Positions 55 through 36,632 are shown, counted from the first letter of the stretch. The stretch is 50,123 nucleotides of DNA from an uncultured Rhizobiaceae bacterium (GCA_964484785.1 CAZAFD010000002.1:1-50123), one strand, 5' to 3'. The notes: a model not told the origin generated them from the sequence alone. Numbers and translations: made by a program.

Positions 55-127
<73 letters not shown>

Positions 128-16513: not shown

Positions 16514-17677
16514 TTATTTTACTAGTAGACTATTATAACACTTCTTAAGTTTTGTATACATATTCTCAAAACTAAAATTATCAACAACATTAAGTCTAGC
16601 TGTCTTTGTTAATACTTGTTTTTCATGTGTACTTAAGGTCATAACTCGGTCTAAAACCTCAGCAAATACCCTAACATCATCAGGTGGTACTAAGAAGCCT
16701 GTTAAACCATCTTTTGTGGTTTCAAGCATTCCTCCAAGTGCGGTTCCTATAAAAATACGTTCCATAGCCTGAGCCTCTATAGCAATCATACCAAAAGCCT
16801 CTGGTTTTAAAGTAGAACAAACAACAATATCTGATAATTTATAAAGAGCTGGCATATCTGAAATATTATTTACCAGTCTAACCTTATCATATAGATTATG
16901 TTTATTGATAATATTAATTAATCTTTGCCTATATCTTGGATGTTTGGCAGCATCCCCAGCTAAAATACAAAAATAGTTTTTATTTTTTAACAAGGGAAGA
17001 GTTTTTAATAAATAATCTTGTCCTTTAATTGGTGTGATACGTCCGGGCAAAGTAATAATAACCTTGTCATCCGGAATATTTAATCTCTTTTTGAGCTGAA
17101 TAATTCTATTATCACCAACAATACCCAAATCAAACTTCTTAAGATCTAAACCCCTATATATTAATTCTAGTTTTTGTGGGTCCTTAAAATAAGAAAGATA
17201 ATTGTTATAACAATAATCCCTAATATAATTAGAAACTACTATAATCTTATTAGATTTAAACATAACCGAATTATACAATACCTTAAAATATCTTAGTACT
17301 GCATTTTTAGAGCCTAAACTGTAAGCTCCGTGTATTGTTGTTATGAAGGAAACTTTTAATTTTTTGCAAGCATAATAAACACTCCAAGCTGGAGCACGTG
17401 ATTCAACTTCAACAAGATTTATTTGGTATTTTTTTATAATACGTTTAATAAAAAAGATATTCTTAAATATAACAAAGGGGTTTTTAGATTTAACCTTAGC
17501 TTTAATTACTTGAAGACCAAGACTCTCTAATCTTTGGCTTAATTTGCCACCGCTAGTTAATAAGAATATTTCAAAGTCCTTTTCTCGGAGAAGTCTTAAG
17601 CAAAGTTCAAAAATACCACACTCAACACCGCCAGCCTCCATATTTGGGACAACAAATAAAAGCCTTGTTTGAACCAT
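16514..17677 (-). CDS. GT-B fold glycosyltransferase, family 4-like
   Basis: 387 aa. It has an N-terminal GGVE motif and a C-terminal E-x7-E motif (PEAFGMIAIEAQAME). The start lies 12 nt after the stop of the giant ORF, and the stop lies 2 nt before the acpS start. Confidence 0.8.
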   Translation of the reverse strand: MVQTRLLFVVPNMEAGGVECGIFELCLRLLREKDFEIFLLTSGGKLSQRLESLGLQVIKAKVKSKNPFVIFKNIFFIKRIIKKYQINLVEVESRAPAWSVYYACKKLKVSFITTIHGAYSLGSKNAVLRYFKVLYNSVMFKSNKIIVVSNYIRDYCYNNYLSYFKDPQKLELIYRGLDLKKFDLGIVGDNRIIQLKKRLNIPDDKVIITLPGRITPIKGQDYLLKTLPLLKNKNYFCILAGDAAKHPRYRQRLINIINKHNLYDKVRLVNNISDMPALYKLSDIVVCSTLKPEAFGMIAIEAQAMERIFIGTALGGMLETTKDGLTGFLVPPDDVRVFAEVLDRVMTLSTHEKQVLTKTARLNVVDNFSFENMYTKLKKCYNSLLVK

Positions 17678-17689
17678 ACAGCTGTTTTA

Positions 17690-20600
17690 TTAATCGTAGG
17701 AAAAGTAAATATAAGGTCCTTGTCGATAGGCCGTCTGTTTTTGTTTACTCTCTGTGGATTTTACTGTAGTTTTTATCTTCAAGTATGGTGCACCTGAAAA
17801 ACCAACTGCAGTAGCCGATGTGCTACTATCTGCATAAGTATAACCGCCAGGTCCTTGGCAAAGCATTACGGCCGGTTTATGGTTGTCTTCCCAGGCTAGG
17901 CCACCATAACGAAAATCCTCAGAACCAACTCCACTGCAGTCTATTCTTGTACCACATCCTTTATTAGGTTTACCAAAGTGATCACCTACATCCCAAACAT
18001 CGGTTGATAAACTTATACTACCATTATTTCCACAATTACCACTAATATATCCAGATTTTACTTCACCGCCATCTCCATCCAACCAAACAAAGCACAATTG
18101 ACTATGCGCATAGAAACGATACCTATTAAATTTTTCCCTATATCGTAAACCTGAAACATTGAAGGTTAAATTCCATGTTCCCCAGCCATAAGGATCAACA
18201 CGTACAGTAGCTGTTCCACTGCAACGTCGTACACATTTAGACTCAGTAACAGCCTCCCAAAAACCTTTTGTATTACATTGCACAGCCATATAGAAACCTT
18301 CCCTTGGGGTTTGTTGTAAAGCCGTATTATATCCAGTAACTGATGTACCTGCATTTGCGAGATAAGTTCTATAACCTCCAGGCAAATCCACCATGCATTT
18401 TTGATACATAGCACTGTAATTCGTAGCACTAGCAACCTTGTCTTGAATAGTCATATATATTTTATCTACATAACTGTATAAATACTCGATGATAGGCTCA
18501 ATAGAGGTATCAACCAATTTTGCTGACTTACAGGATTGAATTTCACGATTCGTATCCTCAGCTGAATTGTTTACCTCTTTAACTTTCGTACATACCTCAG
18601 ACAATCTCAATAAATCCGGTATTTTATCACTAAGGTTAACTTTCAGGCAAATAGAATTATTTTCTGATACCACGACGGATGTATCAGAATTAATATCTGG
18701 TGACTGTATACCTGCACACACATATAAAAAACCATTAGCTGTAGATGAAGGCAATGGAGAATATCCCTGTGAATCTGCCGCTAAAAACTCCATAGATACA
18801 CCACCAACTGAACTTGGTTTACTCTTAAGTCCGCTCATTAAACCACTAGTTGAATAGCTGTAATATTTATTATTTATAAAGTTAACATAATTAGTTTTAT
18901 TGTTTTGATAAAACTTATTTGCCCTCCATAATTTTTCGTAGTACTGTATAATACTATTATAATCGTAACTTGAGGATTCGGCTAATCTAAAGTCAGCCGC
19001 CTTCAATCTCTGTATTAGTATTGTGTTATTTCCACTAATTTGAGCTTCTATTACAGCCATTTTTGCTTGTCTCAATTCCTCGGCCTTTTGCTGTTTAAAA
19101 GCAGCTAAATCAGCTTCAGTCACAAAATATGCTTTATGGCAAAGATCTGTCACTTTATTTTCTTCTGGGCATTCTTTAGGTTGAATTGGTTCTTCAACAT
19201 TTTCCCCGCCTTCGCTTGGTTGATTCTCTTCATCATGCTCTCCATTCAAACCGCTTAACTCGGTTCCTAATGATTCACCGGTGTTATCATTGTTTGTTTG
19301 ATTAGCACCAATGTCTGTAGATAATACAGGCGCGCCTTCAATTTCTTCTTGGTTATTGCAGGTTATAATAGGATCACAAACAAATGAATCTTCGACCAAC
19401 ATAATAGTTGGAATCTCTTCTATTGGTTCAACCGGTACCTGCTGATCTTCAACAAAATCTTGAGATACATCAGCATCATCAGCATCCTCCTCTGGTTGAG
19501 GCTCACTTGGCTCTGGCTCTATTGGTTCAGGTATAACCTTATCAGGAATAGTATATTTACATGAGTAAGCTGTATAACCCTCAGACTTATAGTCAATACC
19601 TGCACCTTTTGTACAAACAACCTCAATGTCAGAATCATATACACTCTTATTAACTTGAGTTTTAATATACTTGAGAACTTCTACTTGTAGATCCTCCTGT
19701 ACGCTTGCTTCAACCTCGTCTTTCACAACTTGGCTGTCTAGTACCACATCAACTAGGTGCTTCTTAACTTCCGTCTGGAGATTAGTCTTTTCTGCAGAAG
19801 TTAGAGTTATACTGCGAGCACTATTAAATGATGTAGCCCAAATAGCTAAAGGTGTATCAAATTTAACATATGGACTTGCAACCAACCTACTGATATAACT
19901 ATCACACACTGAATATTGACTATTTGAATAAAAATAATCTTCAAATGAATCAGGAGTGCTGGTACCTGTGCTATAAATATCACTAGATGCATCAGAGTTA
20001 CTGCTGGCACTATTGCATAAATTATTTTGCTGAATAACGTAGCCATTATCTGTCATACCAGCCTTTTGTAAAAAATCACCACTACTAGATTCAAAGATCA
20101 CTATCTTATCAAATGGGTATTTGTTTATGTATACTGAATTGAGACTCGAAACATTTTGACCCACATTATTTTTTATGTTATAAGTACCAGCAGTACAACC
20201 CATATAAACACAGTAGTTAGTACTAAATGATGAATCATTTGCTACAGTTTGTTCAGAAACAGAAACACATGACTTCCTTTCCAAATCTGTACATAATTTT
20301 GTAGGGAATTGGCTTTGATCTAGAGCACCATAATACTCGATAGATCTATCTGAAGTAGATGTGTTATTAATTTTATTTGTACTCTGATTAACACGACAAT
20401 CTGCTCTTATTTTCTGTACAAAACCATGATCAAGATAATTTTTGCTGCCACTATCATAACCAACTAAAACACTAGCGCCACTAACTGTTTTCACATTTCT
20501 AAGTCTATTAAGCTCATCTGCTGGTAGAACTAGAGCATAGCCACTAGGACAAGAAAATTCTGAGTATGAGAAATTTATTGCGCTAGCTGATTTGTATTTT

Positions 20601-23600
20601 TGTTGTAAAGTATTATAATTGTATGTACCAACTTGATCTAAAACTTCTGTAATACCAGATTTGCTAAAGTTCTTTTGATAACTATTGTTACCACATGTCT
20701 TCATTAAACAATCAGATGGGTGAACATGGTGCCCATAATTATTATATAGTGTGCTAGCGTTCGCATCAGCATCAGTTATAATACTAAAGGTTGGAGCACC
20801 ACCTGAACCAAGCGTACACTTATAACCAACTGTGCTTTTAGCATCTGACGTATAGAACAATGTATTATCACATTGAACAGAATCAACATAGTATCTACCA
20901 TATTCTTTCGTACCAATATTCATTGTCTCACTATTACTTGTAATATCAGCAAGACCACTTTCCTTAACATACATAGGCAGAGCCAGTCTCTTAATCTTTA
21001 GTCTATTAAATAATTGAGATAACTCTGTATTATTCTGGAAAACGTTTTCATTGGTACAGGTCTTTGGAATAAAGTAGTTTCCTATATCATAATCAATTGC
21101 ATTAAAGTTCCAGAAGTCAACTTTAGGTTTATTAATACTTCTACTTAAGTTACATACAAACTGCTCTTTAGCCTTTTCAAAAGTAGTAGCTTTAGCTTGT
21201 GAATCAGCTATATTTTGTAATGTCACATTAAACTCGCTGCCGGAGTAATCAGTAATATCTGATTTATTACCAGCACTTAGATAAGAAAAGCCTAAAATTG
21301 AACCTGCATTTTTAACCATTATTCTATTTAGATCAGTATTTAAGTTTAGTGCTAAATTATATGCATTAGACTTATCTTTATTGTATATTGTTATTAAACT
21401 TTTTAGGTCCTCTAGTCTAAAGTAGAGATCACCACAGGTTCTAAATAATACACACCTAGTATCGCCTTGTACAGGACCCCAAGTACCATCTTCGTAACAC
21501 CTTCTCTTTGGAGGGTTTTTAGTTTTTTTATTGATTACATACTGGTATACCTCTGTCTCAGATCCCTTTACAGGATATGTGGCATCACATTCTCCTTCTA
21601 CTTCGTAATACCTTAAACCTTTCTTAGGTCCAGTTGTTTCTAAAGTTAAACTATTTTCATTAACAATAGATCTTGGCCACCTAGCACCACCAAGTCTATA
21701 GTCACCATATAAGAAGCCGCTTGTTTCCTTATTGGCAATAATAACTGATTCCTTATCAGTAGAAGAATAATCATGGAATCTATCATAATCAGGTGTACTT
21801 CTAATAGTACTTATATCTTGGTTACTAATATAATCACCATCGTTAATTTTGCGTTTAAAATTGGTATGATATAAGTCCATCATCTCACAGGCTCTAAAGC
21901 ATGGATTATTTACTCCGCTCCATATACCGGCACTATTACATGTTCTACTTGGTTTTTCAGCATCAGCTGATGCTACTTCATCTATCAACCCAAACATACG
22001 CGGATCGGTTACGCTTGAAGTAAATTGTAACTGACTATGCTGATCTATAAATGTGTCTAAGAAGTAGGTACCTCGACTATAATAACCTAAATCTGCAGCA
22101 CATTCGCCCTGAACTTTCTTCAAATAACTTGTACTTGAATCTATACTTTGATCTTCTTGGGACTTTATATCAAAAATTCTTATTATAGAAGCACTTGTAT
22201 AATCATTTACATCATAAATAACTTTAGAACTATCATTCCTTGGTGCTGAAATAGCTTCCCAGCGAGCTCCTCCTGTATGTCTCCAAGGTGTATACTTGTT
22301 AATTATTTTTGGATCGGAGGTTATATAATACTTGCCATGTCTTGTGGTACCACTAGGTAAAGTCTCATCAATAGATGGTTTGGTTTCTGATACATAAATA
22401 CTATACTGCATCTTATCATCATATGTATCAAAAGAATCCTCAAAGTTTATACGTGGACAATATAAACGTTCACAATATAAATTCTTTTCTACAGCAGGTT
22501 CAAACACTTCACGAACATTATCTTGTAAGAAGCCAGTATCTTTATCAACTATAAAGTTTAGATTTAAGAAACCATTACCATTATTAGCACCCGTTACAGC
22601 ATTCTGCCAAACCGGATGTTCTCTAAAGTAGTGTAGAGCAGTATTAGTTATAGCATTATGATAAATATCTCTCACAACCAACCATTCTCCTCTTGGACCA
22701 CAGTATCTCCTAGGTAGATAAGCATTCAACTGTAAACCAGTAATATTTAAACCATTAGTTAGGAGTTCTTCATTAAATATTCTAACTTGTTCCTTGAGCA
22801 ACTTAACAAATTTATTTTGTTCTACTCTAGTACCAGCCAAGTATTCGTAATTAACATCAACATCAGCAGAATTACTATCTGTAAATATATATGGTATATA
22901 TCTTTCTTTGTAGTAATTTGTACCAGCTGGCGCAAAACCAGTAATACATTGTTTAGCTACAGCTGGTTGCGCTATATCTTTACTTTCTATACTAGACCAT
23001 ACAGCAAAACCATGTGAATTACCTCTTAAATCTACAGATTGTCCATCTATTTCTTCATTATGTGAGAAGGATTTAAAATCAGTAGGAGCAACTGTAGATG
23101 TAAAATTACTTATTTCGGCAGCATCAAAGTTATATATTTCACTTTCATCACCAGAATCTATAAATACATCAGGACAAGCATACCTCTCACAAACCTGAGA
23201 ATTTTCTAATAATTCATATTGATAGACATATTTATTTCCGATCTTCTTCTTCACACATTTAGCACGAGGAGTACCATGATCTGAATTTCTCCAAAAACCA
23301 TTACACGTACCCTCAACAACATCTTGAGCACCTATACACTTACTAATATTGTCTCCACAGTATAAAGAAGATTCAAATTCTGCATGGCCCAAGCTTAATT
23401 GAGTCTTATCACTTCTGCTAGCAGAATTCATCACACCAAATATTTTTTCTTCACTTCTCCATATATTTTGTTCATAAGGATTATTAGTACCTCTAAGACT
23501 ATTTAACTCTTCTTCGGTGGTAAAGTATAACTGTTCATTAGGGTCAATATACTTATGATTATGGCCATAATACTTGACTGCACGACATGTAGGAATTTCT

Positions 23601-26600
23601 GGGATACTTACACATAGACCTAATTCTCTACGTTCCGCATCACGTGATTCAAAATATTTATTAAAGAGGCTAGCATTATCTTTACGAGCATTTCTTATAC
23701 CAGTAGTATCATCATAGCAAGAACAAGAATAATTCATCCTATCGTCAGAAAAGACAGTATTATTTTTATTGAATCCGCCTTTATAGCATAACTGCATCTT
23801 TTTAATATATTCCTCATTCTTAATAACTTCCAAAGTAGGTTTGTTACGAATCTCATTAAAAAATGTTGAACAGTTAACTTCTTTTACAAAAAGCGTTTCA
23901 GCGGTACCAAGACTTGCTACCTTTTTACAGCCTATTTCGTTAATATCATCACAGTATGCATAAACAATGTCATCCACTAAACAATCAATATTAGAACGAC
24001 TTATATCATCGAGTACACACTTACCCTTGGCTCCTTGCTTAGTAACATAAGCTAAAACCTCTGGTATATTATCACCCAACTCACGATTTTTAGCCTTCAT
24101 TGCATCAAAATGCTCTTCTGATATACAAATATCATTGAATGCTCCAAAGGCACCAGGATTCTGTCTAGTTGTATGAATATTTTCTACATAGCCATTGTTA
24201 ATATCCTCATACTTTGCAAATTCTATCAAATCACCATCTAAGTGTTCACAATAAGAGAAAACTGTTTCTGTTATACTGTCATTTTGTCTTTGTAAATTTG
24301 CTATCAAGGATAAATCTTGATTTGCTTTAGACTTTATTTTTTCCCTAGCAATTTTATCTAAATTTTGGTAATATTCCACAACTCGTTTAGAGCAATAACT
24401 TCTATCAAATTTTAAAGAGAAGTGTTGGATGCCGTTTCTACCTGTTTCGTTAATATATATACTATCACTAACCTTATCTCGTAGCTGATATGAAGCATCT
24501 GAAAATTTGCTTAAAATTGAATTATTACTTAAACCTTGTCTATCTACAATTGCCGCTTGGACAACTGGGGTATTAAAGTGGAACTTTTCACTATCAATTC
24601 GCAAGAAAATATTACGGAACGGAGGATAATATCTATCATAACACATTATATTATCTTCTAAAGTAATATAATGTTTACCATTCATTTCTAAAGTATATTG
24701 TTCAAAGGTCTGAGGGACTTCTTGAATTCTGTCTATACAAACAGTAGGAAGCTCTAGATTTCTAATATCCGTATAAGAATCTTTCCTTAAAAGGATATCA
24801 AAAACTTCTAATTTTTTAAATTCTGCTGCTAAATTCTGCCCTTCATATTTATATTCATAAAATGACTTATCGGAATTATTTGAAATAGCAGCTAACTGTG
24901 CCTCATTACTACCCGAATATGCATTTATATATCTACTATCAATAGTTTTGTATTCATAATTGAAATGCATCTTAGGATTAAAGAAATCAAGGATTACTTC
25001 TTGATTGTTATAAGGTATCTTCAATTGATTATTCTTATAACTGTAAAAAGCTGACAGATAGAATAATGGGCTAAATAAATCAATTGAGTTGTTTTGGTTA
25101 GCTAATGTAAAAAAGGCTTGTGGACTTGTTTCGAGTCTAATAGGCACACATTGCGTCTCTTTATAAAATATTTTAGAAACAGGATCATAAATACCTCTAC
25201 AATACTCTATATTTCCTATAGGATTACCATATGAGTCTAATCTACAGTTAATATCACTGCTACTATTTAAATTTCCCACATATGGAACAGTCGCAATCTT
25301 TATATAATTTGCCTTTTCATAATCCTCGTAATCATTTTTAATTCTGTTATCCTGTATATAACAACCACAACTATTGTTCTCAACCGTATAAAAAGTATCA
25401 TCTTTGTGATCTAAAAAAGCAGAAGTAGAGTTATAGGAACCCTCTATTGTTTCACCGTCATAATCAATAAAATATGTCGAATTTTTCTTTAAACAGTCTA
25501 GTTTGTCCTGAGTAATAGATTTATAATCAATCTTTAAACCTCCTTGTGAAACATTTACTATACCAAGTAGCCCACACGAGCTTAATAAATCTCGACTTTT
25601 TGAATTTTGTAAGCTTCCAGATGTTTTAGATCTGACATCGCTTAAAAAATTATCTTTTCTGTTATAAAAGGCATAATCAGTGTTATTATTATCATGTATA
25701 TTAAGTTCTGTTATAATACCTTTTTTATCATTTCCATAATCTCTTACGGTATTAGTATCGTTTCTAACATTTATATTATACTCTGAAAAGTCCTTTTTTT
25801 CACTATAAACACAAGGACTGCTAGGTTTATCATAAGACGGACGACTATAAGTAGTAAGTGGACTACCCAATAGAGCGCTATACGTTTCATAGGCAGCAAG
25901 AGCGGCGGTTGCTACTATTAAAGCAGCCAAGGCACCACCAGCAGTGAAAAAACAAGCAATAGTTGCAGCAGCCACAGCAGCTATCAATACAGCATGTGTT
26001 GTTATTAAGTAAGCTTTAGCTGTACCAACTTCTCCTTCTAGGGCTTTTCTACAAGCAGTTTTAAGAAAGAATTCAGCAGCAAATCTCTTGTCACAATAAG
26101 TATCTAATACTTCTGGAAAAGTATAATTTTCTTTATTTTCAAAGGAACATAAACTACTTTCCTTAGATAAAAATGTACAAACACGTCTTCCAACTCTTTC
26201 AACTTCATACCTAAAACCAAGGTTTGGTGACATTTTATAAGATTCAAAATTAGCGAAGTTAATACCAACTGCCTGGGCATTATCTTTTGTTCCAGGTTGC
26301 AATTTTGTTGGTAGACAATAGTCACCAATATCGCCATGTTCAGCAGCACCACACTGATTACTTTTGCCAAATCTTGTACATACAGATATATCTACAGTGG
26401 CATCTTTAGGTTTTATATTACTATTAGTATCTGTCTTGGCGTAGCTTTGACCTATTTTACTAATATAAGCCGTATTGCTGTCTGGAGTAAAACAGCCTTC
26501 ATCCTTCTCGTTAACGCCACACAAAGGTGTCATTATATCAAATCGACCTCTTCCTACATTACTAATTTTTCCATTATTTAATGCTGGTAGATATTGACTA

Positions 26601-29434
26601 TTAAATGTAGGTGATGGTTCACTCACCATTGGTGTTTCTATTTGGTATACCTCTGCATTACAATATTTTATATTACTTTTGATGGTATCATATAGAGGGG
26701 ATGTTTCTTTTACTAAAGCCTTAATATCTTCATTATAGTACAAACCACAGTCATAATATGAAGGATCAGTTTCGCTCGCAAAACCTAAACCATTATTGTA
26801 AACCTGGCAATTATTTTCAAAGTACTTACTTAGTAATATCTCTGGACATTCATTTTCTTGAGATGTGCACTGTCTGAGCAAGCTATTGCTGTCCGACGGA
26901 CCATTTATTATTTCTGATTCACTGCAGATCGTATCAATTATATATTTTTTATGATTAGACTGACATAATTTAACACTTAAAATTAATTGTTGTTTTTGGT
27001 CACAATAGGCTGGATCATAACTACAATTTTTTCCTTCTGAATCACAGTTTGCACTACAACCAGGATTATCTTTAGCAAAATTTTGTATAAATTCTTTAAT
27101 TTCTCCACTAACATGTGCTGTATCCACCTGTGAGCATTCGGAACTAAGCGCCTTACCAAGCTTTGCAGATCTAACATTAGGTAGGTTGTTGTGCCCACAA
27201 ATAGCAGTAAAAATATTGGAAATATCAACATCTCCCAACATACTACCATTATATTCACTGTTAGGATTTTGATTTAAACCTAATTCCTTATTTTTTTCAC
27301 CCTTGGTCTTTTCATCTAGGCTTCCTATACTAGCAGGAATTTTTAAAGGTACTTCTGCATTTAAATAAAGAGTAAAATTATCAACATATTTACAAACATT
27401 ATGTGCAAAACCCTTGTTAGAAATATATTTGTTTTGATGGTTATCATCGCAGACATTTTCAAAATATTGAGAATTGCTATCACCACCACTAGATCCGCTA
27501 TTTTCGTTAATTGTGGTTTTTACATTACACAAAAAACTTTTATCTGTCCCTATATTTCTATAAATAGGTGTAATTTGCTTACGGCAAACTGCCCTGGATG
27601 TCCAAGAATCATATGAATTAAACCATAGAGACTTTGCGTCTGTCTGAATATTGCTGCTAACAGAGGATTTTAATTCAGTGCATGGAACTGTATTAAGATT
27701 AATATGATTTAAACCCCTGATATAGAAAACTTTATTTTCACAATATTTAGGCAAATTCAAATCTGTCTGGATTATGCTATCCAAACCATTTTTCCCAGTA
27801 TAACCAGAAGTAGCTTTAGCAAAATCTAAAATCTTTTGGGTAGCAACAGCCTCACGTTCTTTCTCGCTTAAAGAAAAACATGTTTTTAAATAACAATTAT
27901 CCTTTTTTGGACTAAGACCTGAAGTAAAGATCAAACTACCATTGTTTAAATCAGAACAGTAAATAGGAAACTCTTTTGGAAAATACTTAAGTTTAGCATC
28001 ATTAGATAACCATCTATATTCGCTGCAACGCTTTATCTTACTACCGCCCTCATTGGATATGGCTCGTAACTCTTCTGAAGTTAGGTCAGCGCAACTCTTA
28101 AGAAAACAGTTTGGTATTTTAAGTGTTACGTTGGAAACACTTACATTTTTTGTACTAAAAGTATTATATTTAAAATTACCCGAAGCATCTAAATCTGAAC
28201 AATAGGAAACGTCAGCAGAAGATTCTTGGTTAGGTTCATCATAATATAAACAATTCGCAGTATTACCATTATTACTTAAATACTGTAAATATGCTTCATC
28301 AAAGTCTTTTATATTGCTTGTTTTACTTTTATAGTAGTTAGCTCTATTGTTGTTTCTTGTATTTGTATTGCTAATTAATGGACGTCTGTTTACTAAAGGA
28401 ATCTCCTTGCAAGGCGGCAAATACTTATCGCAAGTAGCTCTTTGAATATTTTTAATGTAGTAATCTACTCGAACAACATTGTTACCACTAGAAGTTTTTT
28501 CAGTATATTTATATTTAAAGTATGCATTATTAGTTAGTATATTAATACGTTCACCATCAACCAAGACACTTTTACAATCATTAAGTGCACAAGAACCCTT
28601 ATACTGGAAAAAAGCAACATTTGATGGTAAATCACTCTTTATTATTCTTCTAAAATTTTCATCATTCACACCTGATGACTGTTCTGTAACTATATTAACA
28701 CCCGATGAGTCGCTACTACCAACTTTTAAGTCACATGTATATCTTTTTAGTCTACAGTTACGACTAGAATCGTAGACAGCATCTTCCTCTGCATAACGTA
28801 TGTCCTTATAATATATTACAAAGGAATGTTTTTTATTATCTTCATTATATATGGTGTAATCCTCATCATCCACTGCATAAAATTTAGTATTAATAGTATT
28901 ATATTCTTTATACCTATTACATATATGCTGTTCTGGATAACAAGTAGGCTTATTTAAGTTTGGAATAAAGGAGGAATTATTGTTTTCTCCGGAAACAAAG
29001 CTGTCCCAAGAAGAACAGTTCTTAACATCCCTCTTTGTACAAGATCCATGAGAAATTATCCTATCGGATTCACAAACAATTACCTTCGAGTCACTAAAAC
29101 CGCATGAATAAAGCTCACTCCACTTGCTGTCTAGTGTCTTTAATTTTTTTGTTGTTAGAATTTTAAATAAGGCATAATCATTTGAATTCTCATTATTTTT
29201 ATTTTTTAGAGAGATAAAATTATAATAATTCTTACTTAAATTCTCGGTAGTTTTGCTTCCGTATAATTCTTCAGTCAGATTAATTGTGCAATCAGCGTAA
29301 TCAGCCTTTGCTCTTTTTTGAAAAAATAGAAGACAAAATAAAGTAGATAAAAGTAGTACAGAGATAATACGTCTCTTAGAAGAAATCTCTTCTTCAAGCT
29401 TTATAAAAGTATATTCATTATTACTCATGATCAT
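17690..29434 (-). CDS. Giant (3,914 aa) cysteine-rich modular envelope/secreted protein of unknown family
   Basis: An uninterrupted 11,745-nt ORF in AT-rich DNA cannot arise by chance. It has an N-terminal signal/anchor (KRRIISVLLLSTLFCLLFFQKRAKA|DY), an internal 50-aa hydrophobic hairpin (aa ~1141-1190) and recurring Cys-containing modules. It is rich in Asn, Ser, Tyr and Cys. I recognise no known adhesin, toxin or autotransporter signature. Confidence 0.9.
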   Translation of the reverse strand: MIMSNNEYTFIKLEEEISSKRRIISVLLLSTLFCLLFFQKRAKADYADCTINLTEELYGSKTTENLSKNYYNFISLKNKNNENSNDYALFKILTTKKLKTLDSKWSELYSCGFSDSKVIVCESDRIISHGSCTKRDVKNCSSWDSFVSGENNNSSFIPNLNKPTCYPEQHICNRYKEYNTINTKFYAVDDEDYTIYNEDNKKHSFVIYYKDIRYAEEDAVYDSSRNCRLKRYTCDLKVGSSDSSGVNIVTEQSSGVNDENFRRIIKSDLPSNVAFFQYKGSCALNDCKSVLVDGERINILTNNAYFKYKYTEKTSSGNNVVRVDYYIKNIQRATCDKYLPPCKEIPLVNRRPLISNTNTRNNNRANYYKSKTSNIKDFDEAYLQYLSNNGNTANCLYYDEPNQESSADVSYCSDLDASGNFKYNTFSTKNVSVSNVTLKIPNCFLKSCADLTSEELRAISNEGGSKIKRCSEYRWLSNDAKLKYFPKEFPIYCSDLNNGSLIFTSGLSPKKDNCYLKTCFSLSEKEREAVATQKILDFAKATSGYTGKNGLDSIIQTDLNLPKYCENKVFYIRGLNHINLNTVPCTELKSSVSSNIQTDAKSLWFNSYDSWTSRAVCRKQITPIYRNIGTDKSFLCNVKTTINENSGSSGGDSNSQYFENVCDDNHQNKYISNKGFAHNVCKYVDNFTLYLNAEVPLKIPASIGSLDEKTKGEKNKELGLNQNPNSEYNGSMLGDVDISNIFTAICGHNNLPNVRSAKLGKALSSECSQVDTAHVSGEIKEFIQNFAKDNPGCSANCDSEGKNCSYDPAYCDQKQQLILSVKLCQSNHKKYIIDTICSESEIINGPSDSNSLLRQCTSQENECPEILLSKYFENNCQVYNNGLGFASETDPSYYDCGLYYNEDIKALVKETSPLYDTIKSNIKYCNAEVYQIETPMVSEPSPTFNSQYLPALNNGKISNVGRGRFDIMTPLCGVNEKDEGCFTPDSNTAYISKIGQSYAKTDTNSNIKPKDATVDISVCTRFGKSNQCGAAEHGDIGDYCLPTKLQPGTKDNAQAVGINFANFESYKMSPNLGFRYEVERVGRRVCTFLSKESSLCSFENKENYTFPEVLDTYCDKRFAAEFFLKTACRKALEGEVGTAKAYLITTHAVLIAAVAAATIACFFTAGGALAALIVATAALAAYETYSALLGSPLTTYSRPSYDKPSSPCVYSEKKDFSEYNINVRNDTNTVRDYGNDKKGIITELNIHDNNNTDYAFYNRKDNFLSDVRSKTSGSLQNSKSRDLLSSCGLLGIVNVSQGGLKIDYKSITQDKLDCLKKNSTYFIDYDGETIEGSYNSTSAFLDHKDDTFYTVENNSCGCYIQDNRIKNDYEDYEKANYIKIATVPYVGNLNSSSDINCRLDSYGNPIGNIEYCRGIYDPVSKIFYKETQCVPIRLETSPQAFFTLANQNNSIDLFSPLFYLSAFYSYKNNQLKIPYNNQEVILDFFNPKMHFNYEYKTIDSRYINAYSGSNEAQLAAISNNSDKSFYEYKYEGQNLAAEFKKLEVFDILLRKDSYTDIRNLELPTVCIDRIQEVPQTFEQYTLEMNGKHYITLEDNIMCYDRYYPPFRNIFLRIDSEKFHFNTPVVQAAIVDRQGLSNNSILSKFSDASYQLRDKVSDSIYINETGRNGIQHFSLKFDRSYCSKRVVEYYQNLDKIAREKIKSKANQDLSLIANLQRQNDSITETVFSYCEHLDGDLIEFAKYEDINNGYVENIHTTRQNPGAFGAFNDICISEEHFDAMKAKNRELGDNIPEVLAYVTKQGAKGKCVLDDISRSNIDCLVDDIVYAYCDDINEIGCKKVASLGTAETLFVKEVNCSTFFNEIRNKPTLEVIKNEEYIKKMQLCYKGGFNKNNTVFSDDRMNYSCSCYDDTTGIRNARKDNASLFNKYFESRDAERRELGLCVSIPEIPTCRAVKYYGHNHKYIDPNEQLYFTTEEELNSLRGTNNPYEQNIWRSEEKIFGVMNSASRSDKTQLSLGHAEFESSLYCGDNISKCIGAQDVVEGTCNGFWRNSDHGTPRAKCVKKKIGNKYVYQYELLENSQVCERYACPDVFIDSGDESEIYNFDAAEISNFTSTVAPTDFKSFSHNEEIDGQSVDLRGNSHGFAVWSSIESKDIAQPAVAKQCITGFAPAGTNYYKERYIPYIFTDSNSADVDVNYEYLAGTRVEQNKFVKLLKEQVRIFNEELLTNGLNITGLQLNAYLPRRYCGPRGEWLVVRDIYHNAITNTALHYFREHPVWQNAVTGANNGNGFLNLNFIVDKDTGFLQDNVREVFEPAVEKNLYCERLYCPRINFEDSFDTYDDKMQYSIYVSETKPSIDETLPSGTTRHGKYYITSDPKIINKYTPWRHTGGARWEAISAPRNDSSKVIYDVNDYTSASIIRIFDIKSQEDQSIDSSTSYLKKVQGECAADLGYYSRGTYFLDTFIDQHSQLQFTSSVTDPRMFGLIDEVASADAEKPSRTCNSAGIWSGVNNPCFRACEMMDLYHTNFKRKINDGDYISNQDISTIRSTPDYDRFHDYSSTDKESVIIANKETSGFLYGDYRLGGARWPRSIVNENSLTLETTGPKKGLRYYEVEGECDATYPVKGSETEVYQYVINKKTKNPPKRRCYEDGTWGPVQGDTRCVLFRTCGDLYFRLEDLKSLITIYNKDKSNAYNLALNLNTDLNRIMVKNAGSILGFSYLSAGNKSDITDYSGSEFNVTLQNIADSQAKATTFEKAKEQFVCNLSRSINKPKVDFWNFNAIDYDIGNYFIPKTCTNENVFQNNTELSQLFNRLKIKRLALPMYVKESGLADITSNSETMNIGTKEYGRYYVDSVQCDNTLFYTSDAKSTVGYKCTLGSGGAPTFSIITDADANASTLYNNYGHHVHPSDCLMKTCGNNSYQKNFSKSGITEVLDQVGTYNYNTLQQKYKSASAINFSYSEFSCPSGYALVLPADELNRLRNVKTVSGASVLVGYDSGSKNYLDHGFVQKIRADCRVNQSTNKINNTSTSDRSIEYYGALDQSQFPTKLCTDLERKSCVSVSEQTVANDSSFSTNYCVYMGCTAGTYNIKNNVGQNVSSLNSVYINKYPFDKIVIFESSSGDFLQKAGMTDNGYVIQQNNLCNSASSNSDASSDIYSTGTSTPDSFEDYFYSNSQYSVCDSYISRLVASPYVKFDTPLAIWATSFNSARSITLTSAEKTNLQTEVKKHLVDVVLDSQVVKDEVEASVQEDLQVEVLKYIKTQVNKSVYDSDIEVVCTKGAGIDYKSEGYTAYSCKYTIPDKVIPEPIEPEPSEPQPEEDADDADVSQDFVEDQQVPVEPIEEIPTIMLVEDSFVCDPIITCNNQEEIEGAPVLSTDIGANQTNNDNTGESLGTELSGLNGEHDEENQPSEGGENVEEPIQPKECPEENKVTDLCHKAYFVTEADLAAFKQQKAEELRQAKMAVIEAQISGNNTILIQRLKAADFRLAESSSYDYNSIIQYYEKLWRANKFYQNNKTNYVNFINNKYYSYSTSGLMSGLKSKPSSVGGVSMEFLAADSQGYSPLPSSTANGFLYVCAGIQSPDINSDTSVVVSENNSICLKVNLSDKIPDLLRLSEVCTKVKEVNNSAEDTNREIQSCKSAKLVDTSIEPIIEYLYSYVDKIYMTIQDKVASATNYSAMYQKCMVDLPGGYRTYLANAGTSVTGYNTALQQTPREGFYMAVQCNTKGFWEAVTESKCVRRCSGTATVRVDPYGWGTWNLTFNVSGLRYREKFNRYRFYAHSQLCFVWLDGDGGEVKSGYISGNCGNNGSISLSTDVWDVGDHFGKPNKGCGTRIDCSGVGSEDFRYGGLAWEDNHKPAVMLCQGPGGYTYADSSTSATAVGFSGAPYLKIKTTVKSTESKQKQTAYRQGPYIYFSYD

Positions 29435-29494: not shown

Positions 29495-29680
29495 TTAAAT
29501 ATCTTTCCACCTAATAGGTTTTTTATCTTCATCTAGGATAATATCATTGGATTTTAGATATTTAGCAGATAAGTATTTTTTATTCTCACCCACAAACATA
29601 ACAGGCTCTACCTCTTTATCCTTGTATATTTTCTTGTTTAGGTTTTCACCTCTGTTCTTCGGGTTATTTTTACTTCCCAT
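29495..29680 (-). CDS. Small basic hypothetical protein
   Basis: 61-aa ORF (MGSKNNPKNRGENLNKK...KPIRWKDI) filling the gap between pgk and the giant gene on the same strand. No recognisable motif. Its coding status rests only on position and strand. Confidence 0.4.
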   Translation of the reverse strand: MGSKNNPKNRGENLNKKIYKDKEVEPVMFVGENKKYLSAKYLKSNDIILDEDKKPIRWKDI

Positions 29681-30995: not shown

Positions 30996-31691
30996 TTACA
31001 TTAAGATCTCTGTAATTTTTCTATTATTTATAGTAATTTTTCTATCAAACGAATCACACAAGTCTTGGTTGTGTGTTACCATTAACAAACTTAGATTATA
31101 GCGCTTCACTAAAAGTGATAATATATTTAGAATTTTTATACCATTATCCTTGTCCAAATTACCAGTAGGTTCATCAGCTAGAATCAAATCTGGCTTAGCG
31201 ATTATGGCACGAGCAATAGCTACTCTTTGTTTCTCTCCACCAGACAAGGCATATGGTTTAACATCTATTTTATCACCTAACCCCATCTCTTCTAATTGCT
31301 TTTTAGCAAGTATATAAGCCTTGTCTCTAGAAAGGTTTTGTATAAGTAATGGCATCATTACATTTTCTAAGGAAGTAAAGTCTGTAAATAAGTGGTGTGC
31401 TTGGTATACAAAACCTAAATTAAGCCGTCGAATTTTTGTCCTTTCCTTGTCATTTAGCTGACTAGTTGGGACACCATTAATAATAACTTCCCCGGAATCT
31501 GGTTTATCTAGTAAACCACATATCTGTAATAAAGTACTTTTACCAGAACCAGATGGGCCAATAAAAGACACAAGTTCGCCCTTTTTTATAGAAAAACACG
31601 AATTCTCTAAAACAACCAATTTATTGCCACTTGGTTCTATATAGGTTTTTGTAATATTTTTACACTCTAATACTACTGTACTGGATCCCAT
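30996..31691 (-). CDS. ABC transporter ATP-binding protein (LolD/MacB-type ATPase, stand-alone)
   Basis: 231 aa, with Walker [10 protein letters not shown], signature [14 protein letters not shown] and Walker [13 protein letters not shown]. The start overlaps the ferredoxin gene's stop by 19 nt. Confidence 0.88.
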
Positions 31692-31915
31692 TCTTTAGCA
31701 TTAGCTCTATTAAACTCAATATCTTTTTCATTAGCCTCGGCATCTGTTAAGATATCACCGTTATCTACAATAACTTGACACACTCCACAATCTATACACT
31801 CATTCGGATCTATAACAAATTCACCTTGTAAGCTTTTTCTAAAACAGTTAACCGGACAAGTCATGCCGGCTTCCTCGAGATTTGGACCTTTTTTATTAAC
31901 AACTACTCTTGGCAT
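31673..31915 (-). CDS. Ferredoxin, FdxA-like but retaining only one Cys cluster
   Basis: 80 aa, with ...TCPVNCF...IDPNECIDCGVCQ... It is colinear with 7Fe ferredoxin FdxA, but the N-terminal CxxCxxxxC region and the final C-P are replaced. Confidence 0.7.
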   Translation of the reverse strand: MPRVVVNKKGPNLEEAGMTCPVNCFRKSLQGEFVIDPNECIDCGVCQVIVDNGDILTDAEANEKDIEFNRANAKEWDPVQ

Positions 31916-31964
31916 TATTATTTATTTTTATTGTTATTAGTTATATAAAGTTTTATTACTTATC

Positions 31965-32774: not shown

Positions 32775-32782
32775 TTTAATAC

Positions 32783-36005: not shown

Positions 36006-36632
36006 TTATTGTAATATATCTCTAATTACAACTCTCATGATAACTGAAGTGCCACTAGATAGATTTTCAGATGTGGTATCGCAGTCTGTATCTCCGGTGT
36101 CACATGTCTGCTGCATAAGCCCTTTAAGCTTGCTAGTAGTAGTAGCACAATAAATCTCCATAGTACCAGCTTCTGAATACTTACCGGCAAATTGACTACA
36201 TATAGCATAATCCAAAGCAGGAGTAGTCTTACTAGAAGCAGACGCAAGATCAAAAGCCATAACACTACTGTCCCCTACATAATACCATGCATTACCTGTT
36301 ACCTTAGAGGTTAAACCAGCTTCAACATTATCATCTGCTGTCAAAGAACCTTCTAGATAACCACTATTAGACAAGTGATACATAGAAATCTTTTCATTTT
36401 TTAATTTATCTGCTGTCGCTGCTGCCGTATAATCCGAAATGTCATAGGTATCCGTGTAATTTCTTGTAGCAATCTTAATAGTTTCTAGTTCGCTCTTTAT
36501 AACCGCTAATTTAGCACTATTAATTAAAGCTTTACCACTTATAACTGCTGCTATAAGAAGACCTATAATAATTAAAACTATAGAAAGCTCTACTAATGAA
36601 AAACCTTTATTTGCCCTTTTTTGTAGTTTCAT
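36006..36632 (-). CDS. Type IV pilin / T2SS pseudopilin-like protein (prepilin-type N-terminus)
   Basis: 208 aa. The sequence MKLQKRANKG|FSLVELSIVLIIIGLLIAAVISG is a class III signal peptide with G-1, F+1 and E+5. The C-terminal region has Cys pairs (CATTTSKLKGLMQQTCDTGDTDC). Confidence 0.8.
   Translation of the reverse strand: MKLQKRANKGFSLVELSIVLIIIGLLIAAVISGKALINSAKLAVIKSELETIKIATRNYTDTYDISDYTAAATADKLKNEKISMYHLSNSGYLEGSLTADDNVEAGLTSKVTGNAWYYVGDSSVMAFDLASASSKTTPALDYAICSQFAGKYSEAGTMEIYCATTTSKLKGLMQQTCDTGDTDCDTTSENLSSGTSVIMRVVIRDILQ

What the first reader, a model, noticed from the sequence alone, without database searches (positions are those of the whole stretch)
17690..29434. 11.7-kb ORF encoding a 3,914-aa cysteine-rich modular protein that I cannot place in any known family
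About 23% of this window is one uninterrupted reading frame, in DNA where random frames hit AT-rich stop codons every few dozen codons. The product starts with a signal/anchor (KRRIISVLLLSTLFCLLFFQKRAKA|DY). It is very rich in Cys: I count 22 in the first ~530 aa, about one per 25 residues. It is also rich in Asn, Ser and Tyr. Short modules recur: C-[FYL]-[LM]-K-[ST]-C three times (NCFLKSC, NCYLKTC, DCLMKTC), V-x-G-E-C-[AD]-A twice, and C-E-R-x-x-C-P twice. I see no autotransporter barrel terminus (it ends ...PYIYFSYD), no RTX, Big or cadherin-like repeat, no Rhs/YD repeat and no obvious enzymatic motif. In a reduced genome, keeping an intact gene this large implies strong selection. A surface or host-interaction role is the most plausible reading, but that is inference.
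Basis: partly seen in the sequence, partly recalled or inferred. Interest (0 to 1): 0.85.

Follow-up and report, generated by a model that had tools for sequence, protein, structure and literature searches.

The report
Giant cysteine-rich exported protein, undescribed family
A real 3,914-residue exported, disulfide-rich protein from an uncultured Rickettsiales-like bacterium belongs to a previously undescribed family of giant proteins, is nearly always preceded by a conserved ~65-residue partner gene, and resembles nothing characterised; its role, probably at the cell envelope or surface, is still unknown.

Summary

It is not an orphan. An exhaustive HMMER search found 55 relatives, 37 at E<1e-30, mostly 2,400-5,186 aa. 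All named ones are 'hypothetical protein [Rickettsiales bacterium]' from MAGs.

No member matches Pfam, NCBIfam, PHROGs, PADLOC or PDB sequences. An AlphaFold model of the conserved core (pLDDT 68.6) has no significant Foldseek match.

Shared features:
- a signal peptide;
- a collinear series of unique, non-repeated regions;
- 86 of 125 Cys at least 90% conserved at about 29% overall identity;
- a ~45-residue hydrophobic hairpin at about residue 1140 in the 4,000-aa subfamily;
- a short duplicated module with sub-threshold Sushi/SCR-like signals;
- a conserved C-terminal domain.

A 61-69-aa gene lies directly upstream in 7 of 8 loci. The giant protein diverges fast (27-31% identity, against 74-78% for the adjacent pgk).

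Best reading: a Sec-exported, disulfide-stabilised envelope or surface protein, probably for host or prey contact. Export is well supported. Surface location and function are inferred.

The parts
17690..29434 (-). Giant ORF of 3,914 aa plus stop. The NCBI record calls the start two codons later, at nt 29428 (3,912 aa).
29303..29434 (-). Signal peptide, residues 1-44: basic n-region (KRR), hydrophobic core, and AKA|DY cleavage context.
   Evidence: Hydrophobic segment at residues 20-41. The ...A|DYA[DN]C context is conserved with L001. All full-length relatives have a comparable N-terminus. No dedicated signal-peptide predictor was available.
26015..29302 (-). N-terminal cysteine-rich arm, residues 45-1140. 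It includes two copies of the invariant C-[YFL]-L-K-[ST]-C-x-[DS]-L-[TS]-x-x-E motif at residues 443-455 and 514-526.
   Evidence: Cys positions. Invariant columns C443 L445 K446 S447 C448 D450 L451 E455, C514 Y515 C519 S521 L522 E526 and others. P0002 and L001 match this arm.
25880..26014 (-). Hydrophobic Ala/Gly-rich block, residues 1141-1185 (AYLITTHAVLIAAVAAATIACFFTAGGALAALIVATAALAAYETY). I read it as a two-helix membrane hairpin.
   Evidence: Kyte-Doolittle 19-residue means of 1.7-2.2. An equivalent block is present at about residues 1050-1230 in most members of the 4,000-aa subfamily and at about 1570-1700 in the two longest. It is absent from the 2,500-aa subfamily. The two-helix topology is my inference.
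24068..25879 (-). Conserved post-hairpin region, residues 1186-1789. Family consensus motifs include NITDNNNY.YR.YPRSDNIE.DIKNKLE, CRGF...FYTESQ..K.PL.TSPFFFY.L.TP.NTP.LF.P and LDFF.PK. In the window itself the first of these reads NIHDNNNTDYAFYNRKDNFLSDVRSK, so only part of it is kept.
   Evidence: Consensus and invariant columns.
21365..24067 (-). Family-defining conserved core, residues 1790-2690. Collinear motifs: LGHAEF (2015), CERYAC (2082), LPRRYC..GEW (2240), CERLYC (2321), WRHTGGARW (2384), GGARWPR (2582) and CYEDGTWG (2646).
   Evidence: The profile of this region retrieved 55 relatives. Motif order is collinear in all of them. AlphaFold2 model with 24 sequences: pLDDT 68.6, pTM 0.59, mixed alpha/beta.
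21860..22312 (-). Module M3, residues 2375-2525: WRHTGGARW ... VQGECAA ... P.R.C..G.W....C...C.
   Evidence: hhalign against module M4 gives probability 96.7% and E=4.6e-10 over about 31 residues.
21410..21727 (-). Module M4, residues 2570-2675: GGARWPR ... VEGECDA ... PKRRCYEDGTWGPV..DTRC.....C. This is a duplicated disulfide module with sub-threshold Sushi/SCR-like signals.
   Evidence: Module profile against PDB: GABA-B1a Sushi domain E=0.04, CRFR2 ectodomain E=0.3. Pfam per member: Ephrin_CRD 11 of 20, HRM 4 of 20 (best 8e-4), Sushi 2 of 20. Foldseek: EphA2 CRD with probability 0.69-0.75. All are below significance thresholds.
19865..21364 (-). Distal conserved part of the C-terminal arm, residues 2691-3190, including DCLMKTC at 2908-2914. 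The equivalent stretch is the hot-spot of variation between strains in a relative.
   Evidence: Invariant Cys at 2761, 2793, 2855, 2873, 2909, 2914, 2962, 3013, 3048, 3056, 3075 and 3080. In three close strains (P0021, P0060, P0062), 38 of the 86 variable columns fall in residues 2601-3000.
18635..19837 (-). Poorly conserved stretch, residues ~3200-3600, with an acidic, Pro/Glu-rich linker in residues 3201-3400 (43 Asp+Glu in 200 residues).
   Evidence: Composition. Almost no conserved columns.
17693..18337 (-). Conserved C-terminal domain, residues 3700-3914. Family consensus: G.F/Y.M..C...G.W......C..RC.G...DP.G.G.W.V....LR...
   Evidence: Invariant G3713, C3720, C3734, R3737, C3738 and C3801. 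No PDB or Pfam relative, and no beta-barrel or sorting-domain hit.
29495..29680 (-). Conserved partner gene: a 61-aa basic, hydrophilic protein (MGSKNNPKNRG...KEVEP...KYLSAKY.K..D.....P.RW..I). Its stop lies 60 nt upstream of the giant ORF's start.
   Evidence: A homologous 61-69-aa ORF lies immediately upstream of the giant gene in the window, L001, L082, L083, L084, L085 and L087, and is absent in L086. It is 49-69% identical across loci. No Pfam, NCBIfam or PDB relative. No promoter-like or terminator-like site separates it from the giant ORF.

Best explanation
The ORF is a functional gene for a giant extracytoplasmic protein. It belongs to an undescribed family found, so far, only in uncultured alphaproteobacteria that NCBI labels Rickettsiales.

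Proposed mechanism, step by step:
1. A small cytoplasmic partner gene (61 aa) and the giant gene are transcribed together. This is inferred from conserved adjacency and the lack of intervening signals.
2. The N-terminal signal peptide sends the protein through Sec. This is supported by the sequence across the whole family.
3. Outside the cytoplasm, about 60 disulfides lock a long, non-repetitive series of small unique domains into a rigid array. The evidence is indirect: Cys is by far the best conserved residue on both sides of the hairpin.
4. In the 4,000-aa subfamily, a two-helix hydrophobic hairpin at about residue 1140 tethers the chain in a membrane. That leaves an N-arm of about 1,100 aa and a C-arm of about 2,700 aa on the same, oxidising side. 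This topology is inferred.
5. The C-arm carries duplicated, possibly Sushi/SCR-like binding modules and a stretch that varies between strains. It reaches the cell surface and binds a host or prey surface, or forms a coat. This step is inference; its only support is fast divergence and localised variation between strains.

The role of the small partner is unknown. It could be a chaperone, an export pilot or a regulator.
For: Real and selected:
- The chance of the open frame is about 1e-144, and the coding signal runs its full length.
- A syntenic orthologue follows pgk in L001, L082 and L083.
- There are 55 relatives, 37 at E<1e-30, with collinear motifs.
- Close strains of three relatives keep the ORF intact: 3,769-3,779 aa on at least 23 contigs, 4,460-4,462 aa, and 2,512-2,546 aa.

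Exported and disulfide-bonded:
- All full-length members have signal-peptide-like N-termini.
- 86 of 125 Cys are at least 90% conserved among 12 proteins that are about 29% identical. Mean conservation is 0.79 for Cys, 0.64 for Trp and 0.15-0.43 for the other residues.
- Conserved Cys lie on both sides of the hydrophobic block. That fits an even number of membrane passes.
- No substitution between close strains touches a Cys.

Hairpin.

Exposure or interaction:
- The giant protein is 27-31% identical where the adjacent pgk is 74-78% identical.
- Variation between strains is concentrated in the C-arm. Only 4 variable columns fall in the first 1,600 residues, against 38 in residues 2601-3000.
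- The duplicated module gives converging sub-threshold hits to Sushi, HRM and Ephrin-CRD extracellular binding modules.

Partner gene: upstream in 7 of 8 loci, including loci with otherwise different neighbours.
Against: - No experiment or expression data exists.
- No outer-membrane secretion or anchoring signal was found. There is no autotransporter barrel and no recognised C-terminal sorting domain.
- A hairpin in the inner membrane would by itself keep the protein in the periplasm.
- The hairpin is absent from the 2,500-aa subfamily and is only a short segment in L082. It is therefore not essential to the family's core function.
- The Sushi-like signals are all below significance.
- Only 23% of the protein was modelled.
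- The analysis of variation between strains rests on three sequences of a relative, not of the window protein.
- Signal-peptide and TM calls rest on hydropathy and inspection, not on dedicated predictors.
Confidence: 0.5

Rival explanations
1. It is a periplasmic envelope scaffold. The protein is exported by Sec, tethered to the inner membrane by the hairpin, and stays in the periplasm. There it acts as a structural or spacing element of an unusual cell envelope and is never surface-exposed.
For: - The hydrophobic hairpin is strong enough to be integrated by Sec (19-residue hydropathy means of 1.7-2.6).
- No outer-membrane translocation or anchoring domain was found.
- The gene sits among housekeeping genes in conserved synteny, not on an island.
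Against: - The protein diverges much faster than its neighbours, and variation between strains is localised. Both are unusual for a housekeeping periplasmic scaffold.
- The 2,500-aa subfamily lacks the tether.
- A disulfide-rich, non-repetitive protein of about 430 kDa has no known periplasmic precedent (own knowledge).
Confidence: 0.25
2. It is a secreted membrane-inserting toxin or effector. The Ala/Gly-rich hairpin would be a target-membrane insertion element, as in colicin or diphtheria-toxin translocation domains or chlamydial Inc proteins. The flanking arms would deliver or anchor it in a host or prey membrane.
For: - A bilobed hydrophobic block of about 45 residues with a very short, uncharged turn.
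- Giant toxins are known in bacteria (own knowledge).
- The window also encodes a eukaryote-like DOT1-domain protein, which suggests a host-associated lifestyle.
Against: - No toxin, enzymatic, Rhs/YD, RTX or defence-related domain was found.
- There is no pore-forming-domain homology in PDB profile searches.
- The hairpin is missing in a whole subfamily.
- No immunity-like or mobile-element context is present.
- There are conserved structural Cys throughout, which is unusual for proteins that must unfold to translocate.
Confidence: 0.12
3. It is an artefact: a mis-assembly, a chimeric ORF or a decaying pseudogene that happens to be open.
For: - The window comes from a metagenome-type assembly, and read coverage could not be checked.
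- One relative (L082) has the gene split into two ORFs by a frame change.
Against: - The chance of the open frame is about 1e-144.
- The sequence is collinear from end to end with relatives from independent assemblies and sources: NCBI, JGI, ENA and Logan.
- Cysteines are conserved along the whole length.
- Close strains keep the ORF intact.
Confidence: 0.01
4. Its origin is eukaryote-derived mimicry. Parts of the protein (the Sushi/HRM/Ephrin-CRD-like modules) would have been acquired from a eukaryotic host and would mimic host extracellular proteins. This concerns origin and is compatible with the best explanation.
For: - Converging weak hits go only to animal extracellular modules.
- A DOT1-like gene is present in the same window.
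Against: - Every hit is sub-threshold.
- The Trp lies between the second and third Cys of the module, not in the canonical Sushi position between the third and fourth (own knowledge of the Sushi consensus).
- Composition and codon-position GC match the rest of the window.
Confidence: 0.1

Closest known systems
Sushi/CCP (SCR) modules and their fold relatives: hormone-receptor domain (HRM) of class-B GPCRs and the Ephrin-receptor cysteine-rich domain
   Same: - The duplicated ~60-residue module has four invariant Cys, an invariant Trp in a C..DG.W motif, and a P.R.C lead-in.
- Its best sequence and structure matches, although weak, are all to this fold class.
- Like those modules, it is predicted to be extracytoplasmic and disulfide-bonded.
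   Different: - No hit reaches a curated threshold.
- The spacing differs: about 30 residues separate the first and second Cys.
- The Trp lies between Cys 2 and Cys 3 rather than between Cys 3 and Cys 4.
- The modules cover only about 5% of the protein, and the rest has no relative at all.
Giant bacterial surface adhesins: rickettsial Sca autotransporters, and RTX/T1SS adhesins such as LapA and SiiE
   Same: - Very large size.
- Presumed extracytoplasmic destination.
- Occurrence in host-associated bacteria.
- Fast sequence divergence.
   Different: - Those adhesins are built from tandem repeats (beta-helix, Big or cadherin-like domains) and are almost free of Cys.
- They carry a C-terminal beta-barrel or an RTX/T1SS signal.
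- This protein is non-repetitive and has 125 Cys.
- It has an N-terminal Sec signal plus an internal hairpin.
- It has none of those domains.
Chlamydial cysteine-rich envelope proteins (OmcB/OmcA, the disulfide cross-linked outer-membrane complex)
   Same: The idea of an envelope stabilised by disulfide-rich exported proteins in an obligately host-associated bacterium (own knowledge).
   Different: There is no sequence relationship. The chlamydial proteins are 10-60 kDa, not about 430 kDa, and the phylum is different.
Giant genes of Omnitrophota and other predatory bacteria (West-Roberts et al., bioRxiv 10.1101/2023.11.21.568195)
   Same: - Giant, mostly unannotatable proteins from uncultured small-genome bacteria, proposed to mediate attachment.
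- Pilus or T2SS-type genes occur within 10 kb here too: a pilin-like gene in the window, a secretin in L083 and a T2SS-type ATPase in L084.
   Different: - According to that paper's abstract, those proteins have numerous TM regions and SecA-like DEAD helicase domains, and they reach 30,000-85,000 aa.
- This protein has one signal peptide plus one hairpin and no such domain.

Membership tests
Undescribed family of giant Cys-rich proteins of Rickettsiales-labelled MAGs (defined here) | Significant full-core HMMER similarity, with collinear motifs: LGHAEF, CERY.C, CERLYC, W.H.GGA.W, GGA.W.R, CYEDGTWG. | tested here: met
   55 relatives, 37 at E<1e-30. The motif order is conserved.
Undescribed family of giant Cys-rich proteins of Rickettsiales-labelled MAGs (defined here) | An N-terminal signal peptide and conserved cysteines along the whole length. 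| tested here: met
Undescribed family of giant Cys-rich proteins of Rickettsiales-labelled MAGs (defined here) | A conserved ~65-aa partner gene immediately upstream. | tested here: met
   Present in the window and in 6 of 7 other inspectable loci.
Type V autotransporters (e.g. rickettsial Sca proteins) | A C-terminal beta-barrel translocator domain. | tested here: not met
   No Pfam hit on the whole protein. The C-terminal domain profile has no Pfam or PDB relative and contains conserved Cys.
RTX / type I-secreted giant adhesins | Tandem Big/cadherin-like repeats, GGxGxD nonapeptide repeats, a C-terminal T1SS signal and no Sec signal. | tested here: not met
   No Pfam hit. BLAST finds no internal repeats. 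An N-terminal signal peptide is present. The protein has 125 Cys.
Rhs/YD-repeat and polymorphic toxins | YD repeats or an Rhs core, PAAR or other trafficking domains, and a C-terminal toxin with an adjacent immunity gene. | tested here: not met
   No Pfam, NCBIfam or PADLOC hits. The downstream genes differ between loci.
Sushi/CCP (PF00084), HRM (PF02793), Ephrin_CRD (PF25599) | A score above the curated Pfam threshold. | tested here: not met
   Best results: Ephrin_CRD 14.8 bits against a cutoff of 27, HRM E=8e-4 in 4 of 20 members, and Sushi E=0.013 in 2 of 20.
Sushi/CCP (PF00084), HRM (PF02793), Ephrin_CRD (PF25599) | A ~60-residue module with four conserved Cys and a conserved Trp. | tested here: met
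   Invariant C11, C41, W47, C56 and C62 in the module alignment.
Sushi/CCP (PF00084), HRM (PF02793), Ephrin_CRD (PF25599) | A beta-sandwich fold with 1-3 and 2-4 disulfides. | tested here: inconclusive
   Foldseek's top hits are EphA2 CRD, CD55, SPICE and IL-15Ra, but with E=0.2-4.
Hydrophobic-hairpin membrane proteins (chlamydial Inc; colicin-type pore-forming domains) | A bilobed hydrophobic block of 40-60 residues. | tested here: met
   Residues 1141-1185. The block is conserved in the 4,000-aa subfamily.
Hydrophobic-hairpin membrane proteins (chlamydial Inc; colicin-type pore-forming domains) | Homology to a pore-forming or translocation domain, or a type III secretion signal. | tested here: not met
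   No Pfam or PDB profile hit. A Sec signal is present instead. T3SS dependence is not testable with these tools.
Chlamydial cysteine-rich envelope proteins / Pmp | OmcB or Pmp Pfam domains (GGA[ILV]/FxxN repeats plus an autotransporter). | tested here: not met
   No Pfam hit.
Omnitrophota-type giant proteins | Numerous TM regions and a divergent SecA DEAD helicase domain. | tested here: not met
   Only two hydrophobic regions and no Pfam hit.

The most novel reading that the evidence does not exclude
This is the founding example of a new class of bacterial envelope protein. It is a non-repetitive, roughly 430-kDa array of small unique disulfide-locked domains, some with a Sushi/SCR-like fold that is otherwise typical of animal extracellular proteins. 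It is made together with a dedicated ~65-residue cytoplasmic partner. A whole clade of uncultured, small-genome Rickettsiales-like bacteria uses it to engage the surface of a eukaryotic host or prey cell. The variable stretch of the C-arm determines partner specificity.
Probability: 0.25. Interest if true: 0.8.

Novelty: categorically new. Interest (0 to 1): 0.62.

Why it matters
If the reading holds, a whole clade of uncultured, small-genome alphaproteobacteria devotes 7.5-16 kb of coding sequence to a protein type that has no described relative in sequence or, as far as I could test, in fold.

Its design is unlike known bacterial giant proteins. It is non-repetitive and extremely rich in conserved disulfides. 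It has an internal membrane hairpin and a dedicated small partner gene.

It is the obvious candidate for how these organisms contact their host or prey, and it would be a specific marker for the clade.

Defining the family also turns dozens of 'hypothetical protein' records into one testable group. The group has clear landmarks for structural and localisation work: invariant motifs, the hairpin, the stretch that varies between strains, and the partner gene.

Two caveats apply to the 'categorically new' rating. It refers to the protein family. The functional kind (adhesin or coat, periplasmic scaffold, or toxin) is unresolved. In addition, only HMMER-level searches and one modelled tile (23% of the length) stand behind 'no known relative'.

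Tried and rejected
Searches and jobs that failed or gave nothing:
- The whole-protein word-indexed search timed out.
- The C-terminal 1,000 aa gave no hit in the word-indexed search. In hindsight the word filter was too insensitive for this family. Profile queries in the same tool found only P0001 and P0002.
- The exact protein is not on record, because the deposited start differs.
- Pattern-based scans with the giant protein found nothing in species genomes or JGI metagenomes. Using pgk as a bait worked instead.
- The first AlphaFold job, with 2 sequences, gave pLDDT 25 and was discarded.
- A 31-sequence alignment was too large for the structure tool.
- Foldseek against viral structures gave nothing.
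- PDB profile searches of the whole length, at E<=1 and E<=10, gave nothing.
- The C-terminal domain had no PDB or Pfam relative.
- PHROGs and PADLOC gave nothing.
- Literature searches for accessions, locus tags and sample ids found nothing relevant.

Ideas rejected:
- A functional link to the GT4 glycosyltransferase 12 nt downstream. It is not downstream in L081, L083, L084, L085, L086 or L087, and NxS/T sequons are not enriched (56 observed against 51 expected).
- Export by the nearby ABC/HlyD/TolC-like genes. Their linkage is not consistent across loci, and that route is implausible for a folded protein of about 430 kDa.
- Large internal domain repeats. BLAST self-comparison found none. 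hhalign found only a duplicated ~30-residue element.

One slip: I mis-indexed the L001 small ORF by one base, and corrected it.
Full report
**1. The observation**

The ORF at 17690..29434 on the minus strand is real. It has 3,914 codons and an ATG start. It takes up 23.4% of the window.

- With the ORF's own base composition a stop is expected every 12 codons. The log10 probability of 3,914 open codons is about -144.
- The five other frames over the same interval carry 202-653 stops.
- GC3 is 0.19-0.25 and GC1 is 0.33-0.48 in every 500-codon block, so the coding signal runs end to end.
- The NCBI record of this contig calls the same gene two codons shorter (P0003, 3,912 aa, on a contig of 50,123 bp).

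**2. Context and organism**

The neighbours are housekeeping genes of a Gram-negative bacterium.

- Upstream are pgk, a LolD-like ABC ATPase, an HlyD-type adaptor and a NodT/TolC-type channel.
- Downstream are a GT4 glycosyltransferase (12 nt after the stop), trmB and efp.
- Further away are infB, nusA, gyrB, PBP1a, ftsY, parB, infC, truB, a pilin-like protein and a KdsD-like protein.

With pgk as bait, the closest species-representative genome is an uncultured alphaproteobacterial MAG (L001, 78% identical). The next best hits, Micavibrio and others, are only about 50% identical. Every relative of the giant protein that carries a source name is 'hypothetical protein [Rickettsiales bacterium]' from a MAG. 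GC content is about 31%. One relative lies on a 711-kb contig.

**3. It is not an orphan**

- L001 carries a syntenic giant ORF directly after pgk. Its full-length form is P0020, 4,004 aa.
- The word-indexed search of 5.8 billion proteins found only two fragments: P0001 (24% identical) and P0002 (31%).
- P0002's contig, L082, again shows pgk, a small ORF and the giant gene. There the giant gene is split by a frame change.
- The exhaustive HMMER search, using a profile of the core, found 55 proteins. Of these, 42 are at E<1e-10 and 37 at E<1e-30. Most are 2,400-5,186 aa long.
- A series of motifs is collinear in all of them: LGHAEF, CERY.C, CERLYC, W.H.GGA.W, GGA.W.R, CYEDGTWG and a C-terminal G.F.M..C...GW...C..RC.
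- Close strains inside three other clusters keep the ORF intact: 3,769-3,779 aa on at least 23 contigs, 4,460-4,462 aa, and 2,512-2,546 aa.

**4. No known family**

- The window protein and five relatives (P0004, P0005, P0011, P0018, P0019) have no Pfam hit. The only trace is a sub-threshold Ephrin_CRD match at residues 2637-2661.
- NCBIfam, PHROGs and PADLOC give nothing.
- PDB sequences give nothing with the single sequence or with an 8-sequence full-length profile at E<=10.
- An AlphaFold2 model of residues 1790-2690, built on 24 family sequences, reached pLDDT 68.6 and pTM 0.59, with 505 residues at pLDDT 70 or above.
- Foldseek found no match at E<=0.001 in PDB or BFVD.
- The literature holds nothing on these accessions.

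**5. Anatomy**

(a) *Signal peptide.* Residues 1-44 form a signal peptide with an AKA|DY context. The same architecture is seen in all full-length members. In L086, extending the deposited start restores it.

(b) *N-arm.* Residues 45-1140 are rich in invariant Cys.

(c) *Hydrophobic block.* Residues 1141-1185 form a 45-residue Ala/Gly-rich hydrophobic block with a short uncharged turn.
- It is present at the equivalent place in most of the 4,000-aa subfamily.
- It is absent from the 2,500-aa subfamily.
- It is reduced to a short segment in L082.

(d) *C-arm.* It is about 2,700 residues long and includes the family-defining core.

(e) *Variable stretch.* Residues ~3200-3600 are poorly conserved, with an acidic, Pro/Glu-rich linker in residues 3201-3400.

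(f) *C-terminal domain.* Residues 3700-3914 are conserved but have no recognisable relative and no barrel or sorting signature.

BLAST sees no internal repeats. Profile comparison shows that one element of about 30 residues (P.R.C..G.W....C...C) is duplicated. Residues 2375-2525 match 2570-2675 with probability 96.7% and E=4.6e-10. A weaker copy lies at about 2240.

So the protein is a long series of unique regions with a few short recurring disulfide motifs. It is not a tandem-repeat adhesin.

**6. Evidence that it is extracytoplasmic**

- Cys is by far the most conserved residue. 86 of 125 Cys are at least 90% conserved among 12 proteins that share about 29% identity.
- Mean conservation is 0.79 for Cys, 0.64 for Trp and 0.15-0.43 for the other residues.
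- The conserved Cys lie on both sides of the hydrophobic block.
- This pattern is what structural disulfides produce. It requires both arms to be on the oxidising side of the membrane, which fits a signal peptide followed by an even number (two) of membrane passes.
- None of the 86 differences between three close strains touches a Cys.

Export and disulfide bonding are therefore well supported, although indirectly. The two-helix topology is inference.

**7. Evidence on function**

- The protein evolves fast. It is 27-31% identical to orthologues whose adjacent pgk is 74-78% identical.
- In the one relative with several close strains, variation is sharply localised. Only 4 variable columns fall in the first 1,600 residues, while 38 fall in residues 2601-3000. 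That stretch corresponds to about residues 2700-3100 of the window protein.
- The duplicated module gives converging weak signals, all to one fold class of animal extracellular binding modules:
  - PDB sequence profile: GABA-B1a Sushi domain E=0.04; CRFR2 and PTH1R ectodomains E=0.3-1.3.
  - Pfam: Ephrin_CRD in 11 of 20 members, HRM in 4 (best 8e-4), Sushi in 2.
  - Foldseek: EphA2 CRD with probability 0.69-0.75, plus CD55, SPICE and IL-15Ra.

None of these signals is significant, so I treat this as a lead about one module and not as membership of a family. That class-B GPCR ectodomains and the Ephrin CRD share a Sushi/SCR-like fold is my own knowledge.

These features favour an exposed, interaction-type protein, but they do not prove it. 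Against that reading, I found no outer-membrane route or anchor, and an inner-membrane hairpin alone predicts a periplasmic protein.

Genes of the pilus or T2SS type lie within 10 kb in three loci: a pilin-like gene in the window, a secretin in L083 and a T2SS-type ATPase in L084. That machinery can export folded, disulfide-bonded proteins (own knowledge). The linkage is loose and I did not follow it up.

**8. A conserved partner gene**

- Window 29495..29680 (-) encodes a 61-aa basic, hydrophilic protein. Its stop lies 60 nt upstream of the giant ORF's start.
- A homologous ORF of 61-69 aa lies immediately upstream of the giant gene in L001, L082, L083, L084, L085 and L087. This includes a member of the 2,500-aa subfamily and loci where the other neighbours differ. 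It is missing only in L086.
- It is better conserved than the giant protein (49-69% identity).
- It has no Pfam, NCBIfam or PDB relative.
- It has no signal peptide.
- No promoter-like or terminator-like site separates pgk, the small ORF and the giant ORF.

I read the pair as one functional unit. The partner's role (chaperone, export pilot or regulator) is unknown.

By contrast, the GT4 gene downstream is not conserved next to the giant gene, and N-glycosylation-type sequons are not enriched.

**9. Verdict**

The gene is real, intact and under selection, and it cannot be placed in any characterised family.

What is new here:
- It founds, or belongs to, a sizeable undescribed family restricted so far to Rickettsiales-labelled MAGs.
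- It carries an internal hydrophobic hairpin.
- It is paired with a conserved small gene.
- It contains a duplicated, possibly Sushi-like module.

My probabilities for what it is:
- Sec-exported, disulfide-stabilised envelope or surface protein for host or prey contact: 0.5.
- Periplasmic scaffold: 0.25.
- Membrane-inserting toxin or effector: 0.12.
- Artefact: 0.01.
- Something not considered here: the remaining 0.12.

A eukaryote-derived origin of the modules (about 0.1) is a question of origin. It is compatible with any of these readings and is not counted in the total.

At the level of protein family I rate it categorically new. Two caveats apply: the searches were HMMER-level, and only 23% of the length was modelled. 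Interest is 0.62. It is unusual and well-defined, and it is now testable, but there are no functional data.

Noticed in passing
window 29495..29680 (-): A conserved 61-aa basic ORF (MGSKNNPKNRG...) lies directly upstream of the giant gene. Homologues hold the same position in 6 of 7 other loci. It has no known relative.
   Followed up: yes
window 1919..2539 (+): A 206-aa protein with a DOT1 domain, the eukaryotic histone-H3K79 methyltransferase type (Pfam E=3.4e-12). A eukaryote-like domain of this kind suggests a host-associated lifestyle.
   Followed up: no
window 12310..13674 (+): A 454-aa protein with a transglutaminase-like core domain (Pfam E=1.7e-13). It has no NCBIfam name.
   Followed up: no
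window 16514..17677 (-): A GT4-family glycosyltransferase starts 12 nt after the giant ORF's stop, with no terminator between them. It is not adjacent to the giant gene in any other locus, so a functional link is unlikely.
   Followed up: yes
window 30996..34138 (-): A LolD-like ABC ATPase, an HlyD-type adaptor and a NodT/TolC-type outer-membrane factor lie in a row. No membrane permease gene was seen between them. MacB-type or OEP genes also lie near the giant gene in L083 and L084.
   Followed up: partly
window 36006..36632 (-); L083 27057..27607; L084 22945..23937: Pilus or T2SS-type genes lie within 10 kb of the giant gene in three loci: a pilin/pseudopilin-like protein with an N-methylation motif in the window, a secretin in L083 and a T2SS-type ATPase in L084. 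This is a possible export route for a folded, disulfide-bonded protein.
   Followed up: no
L082 ~nt 4391: In this relative (pgk 77% identical) the giant gene is split into an 898-aa ORF and an ORF of at least 2,354 aa by a frame change upstream of the short hydrophobic segment. It could be a sequencing or assembly error, a pseudogene or a genuine split.
   Followed up: partly
L086 3875..4001 and window 29428..29434: Start codons look mis-called in deposited records. P0011's annotated start removes the signal peptide, and an upstream TTG restores ...SLKA|ADEC. The window protein is deposited two codons shorter than the longest ORF.
   Followed up: partly
relative P0021/P0060/P0062, residues 2601-3000 (about window residues 2700-3100; window nt ~20135..21337): Differences between three close strains are strongly clustered. 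38 of the 86 variable columns fall in this 400-residue stretch, and only 4 fall in the first 1,600 residues. This could be a hypervariable exposed region or a recombination tract.
   Followed up: partly
window 55..127 (-) and 49889..49963 (+): Two tRNA-Thr genes (anticodons CGT and GGT) lie at the two ends of the window.
   Followed up: no
window 1194..1922 (+), 42517..43338 (+), 48737..49756 (-): Three further ORFs of 242-339 aa have no Pfam hit.
   Followed up: no
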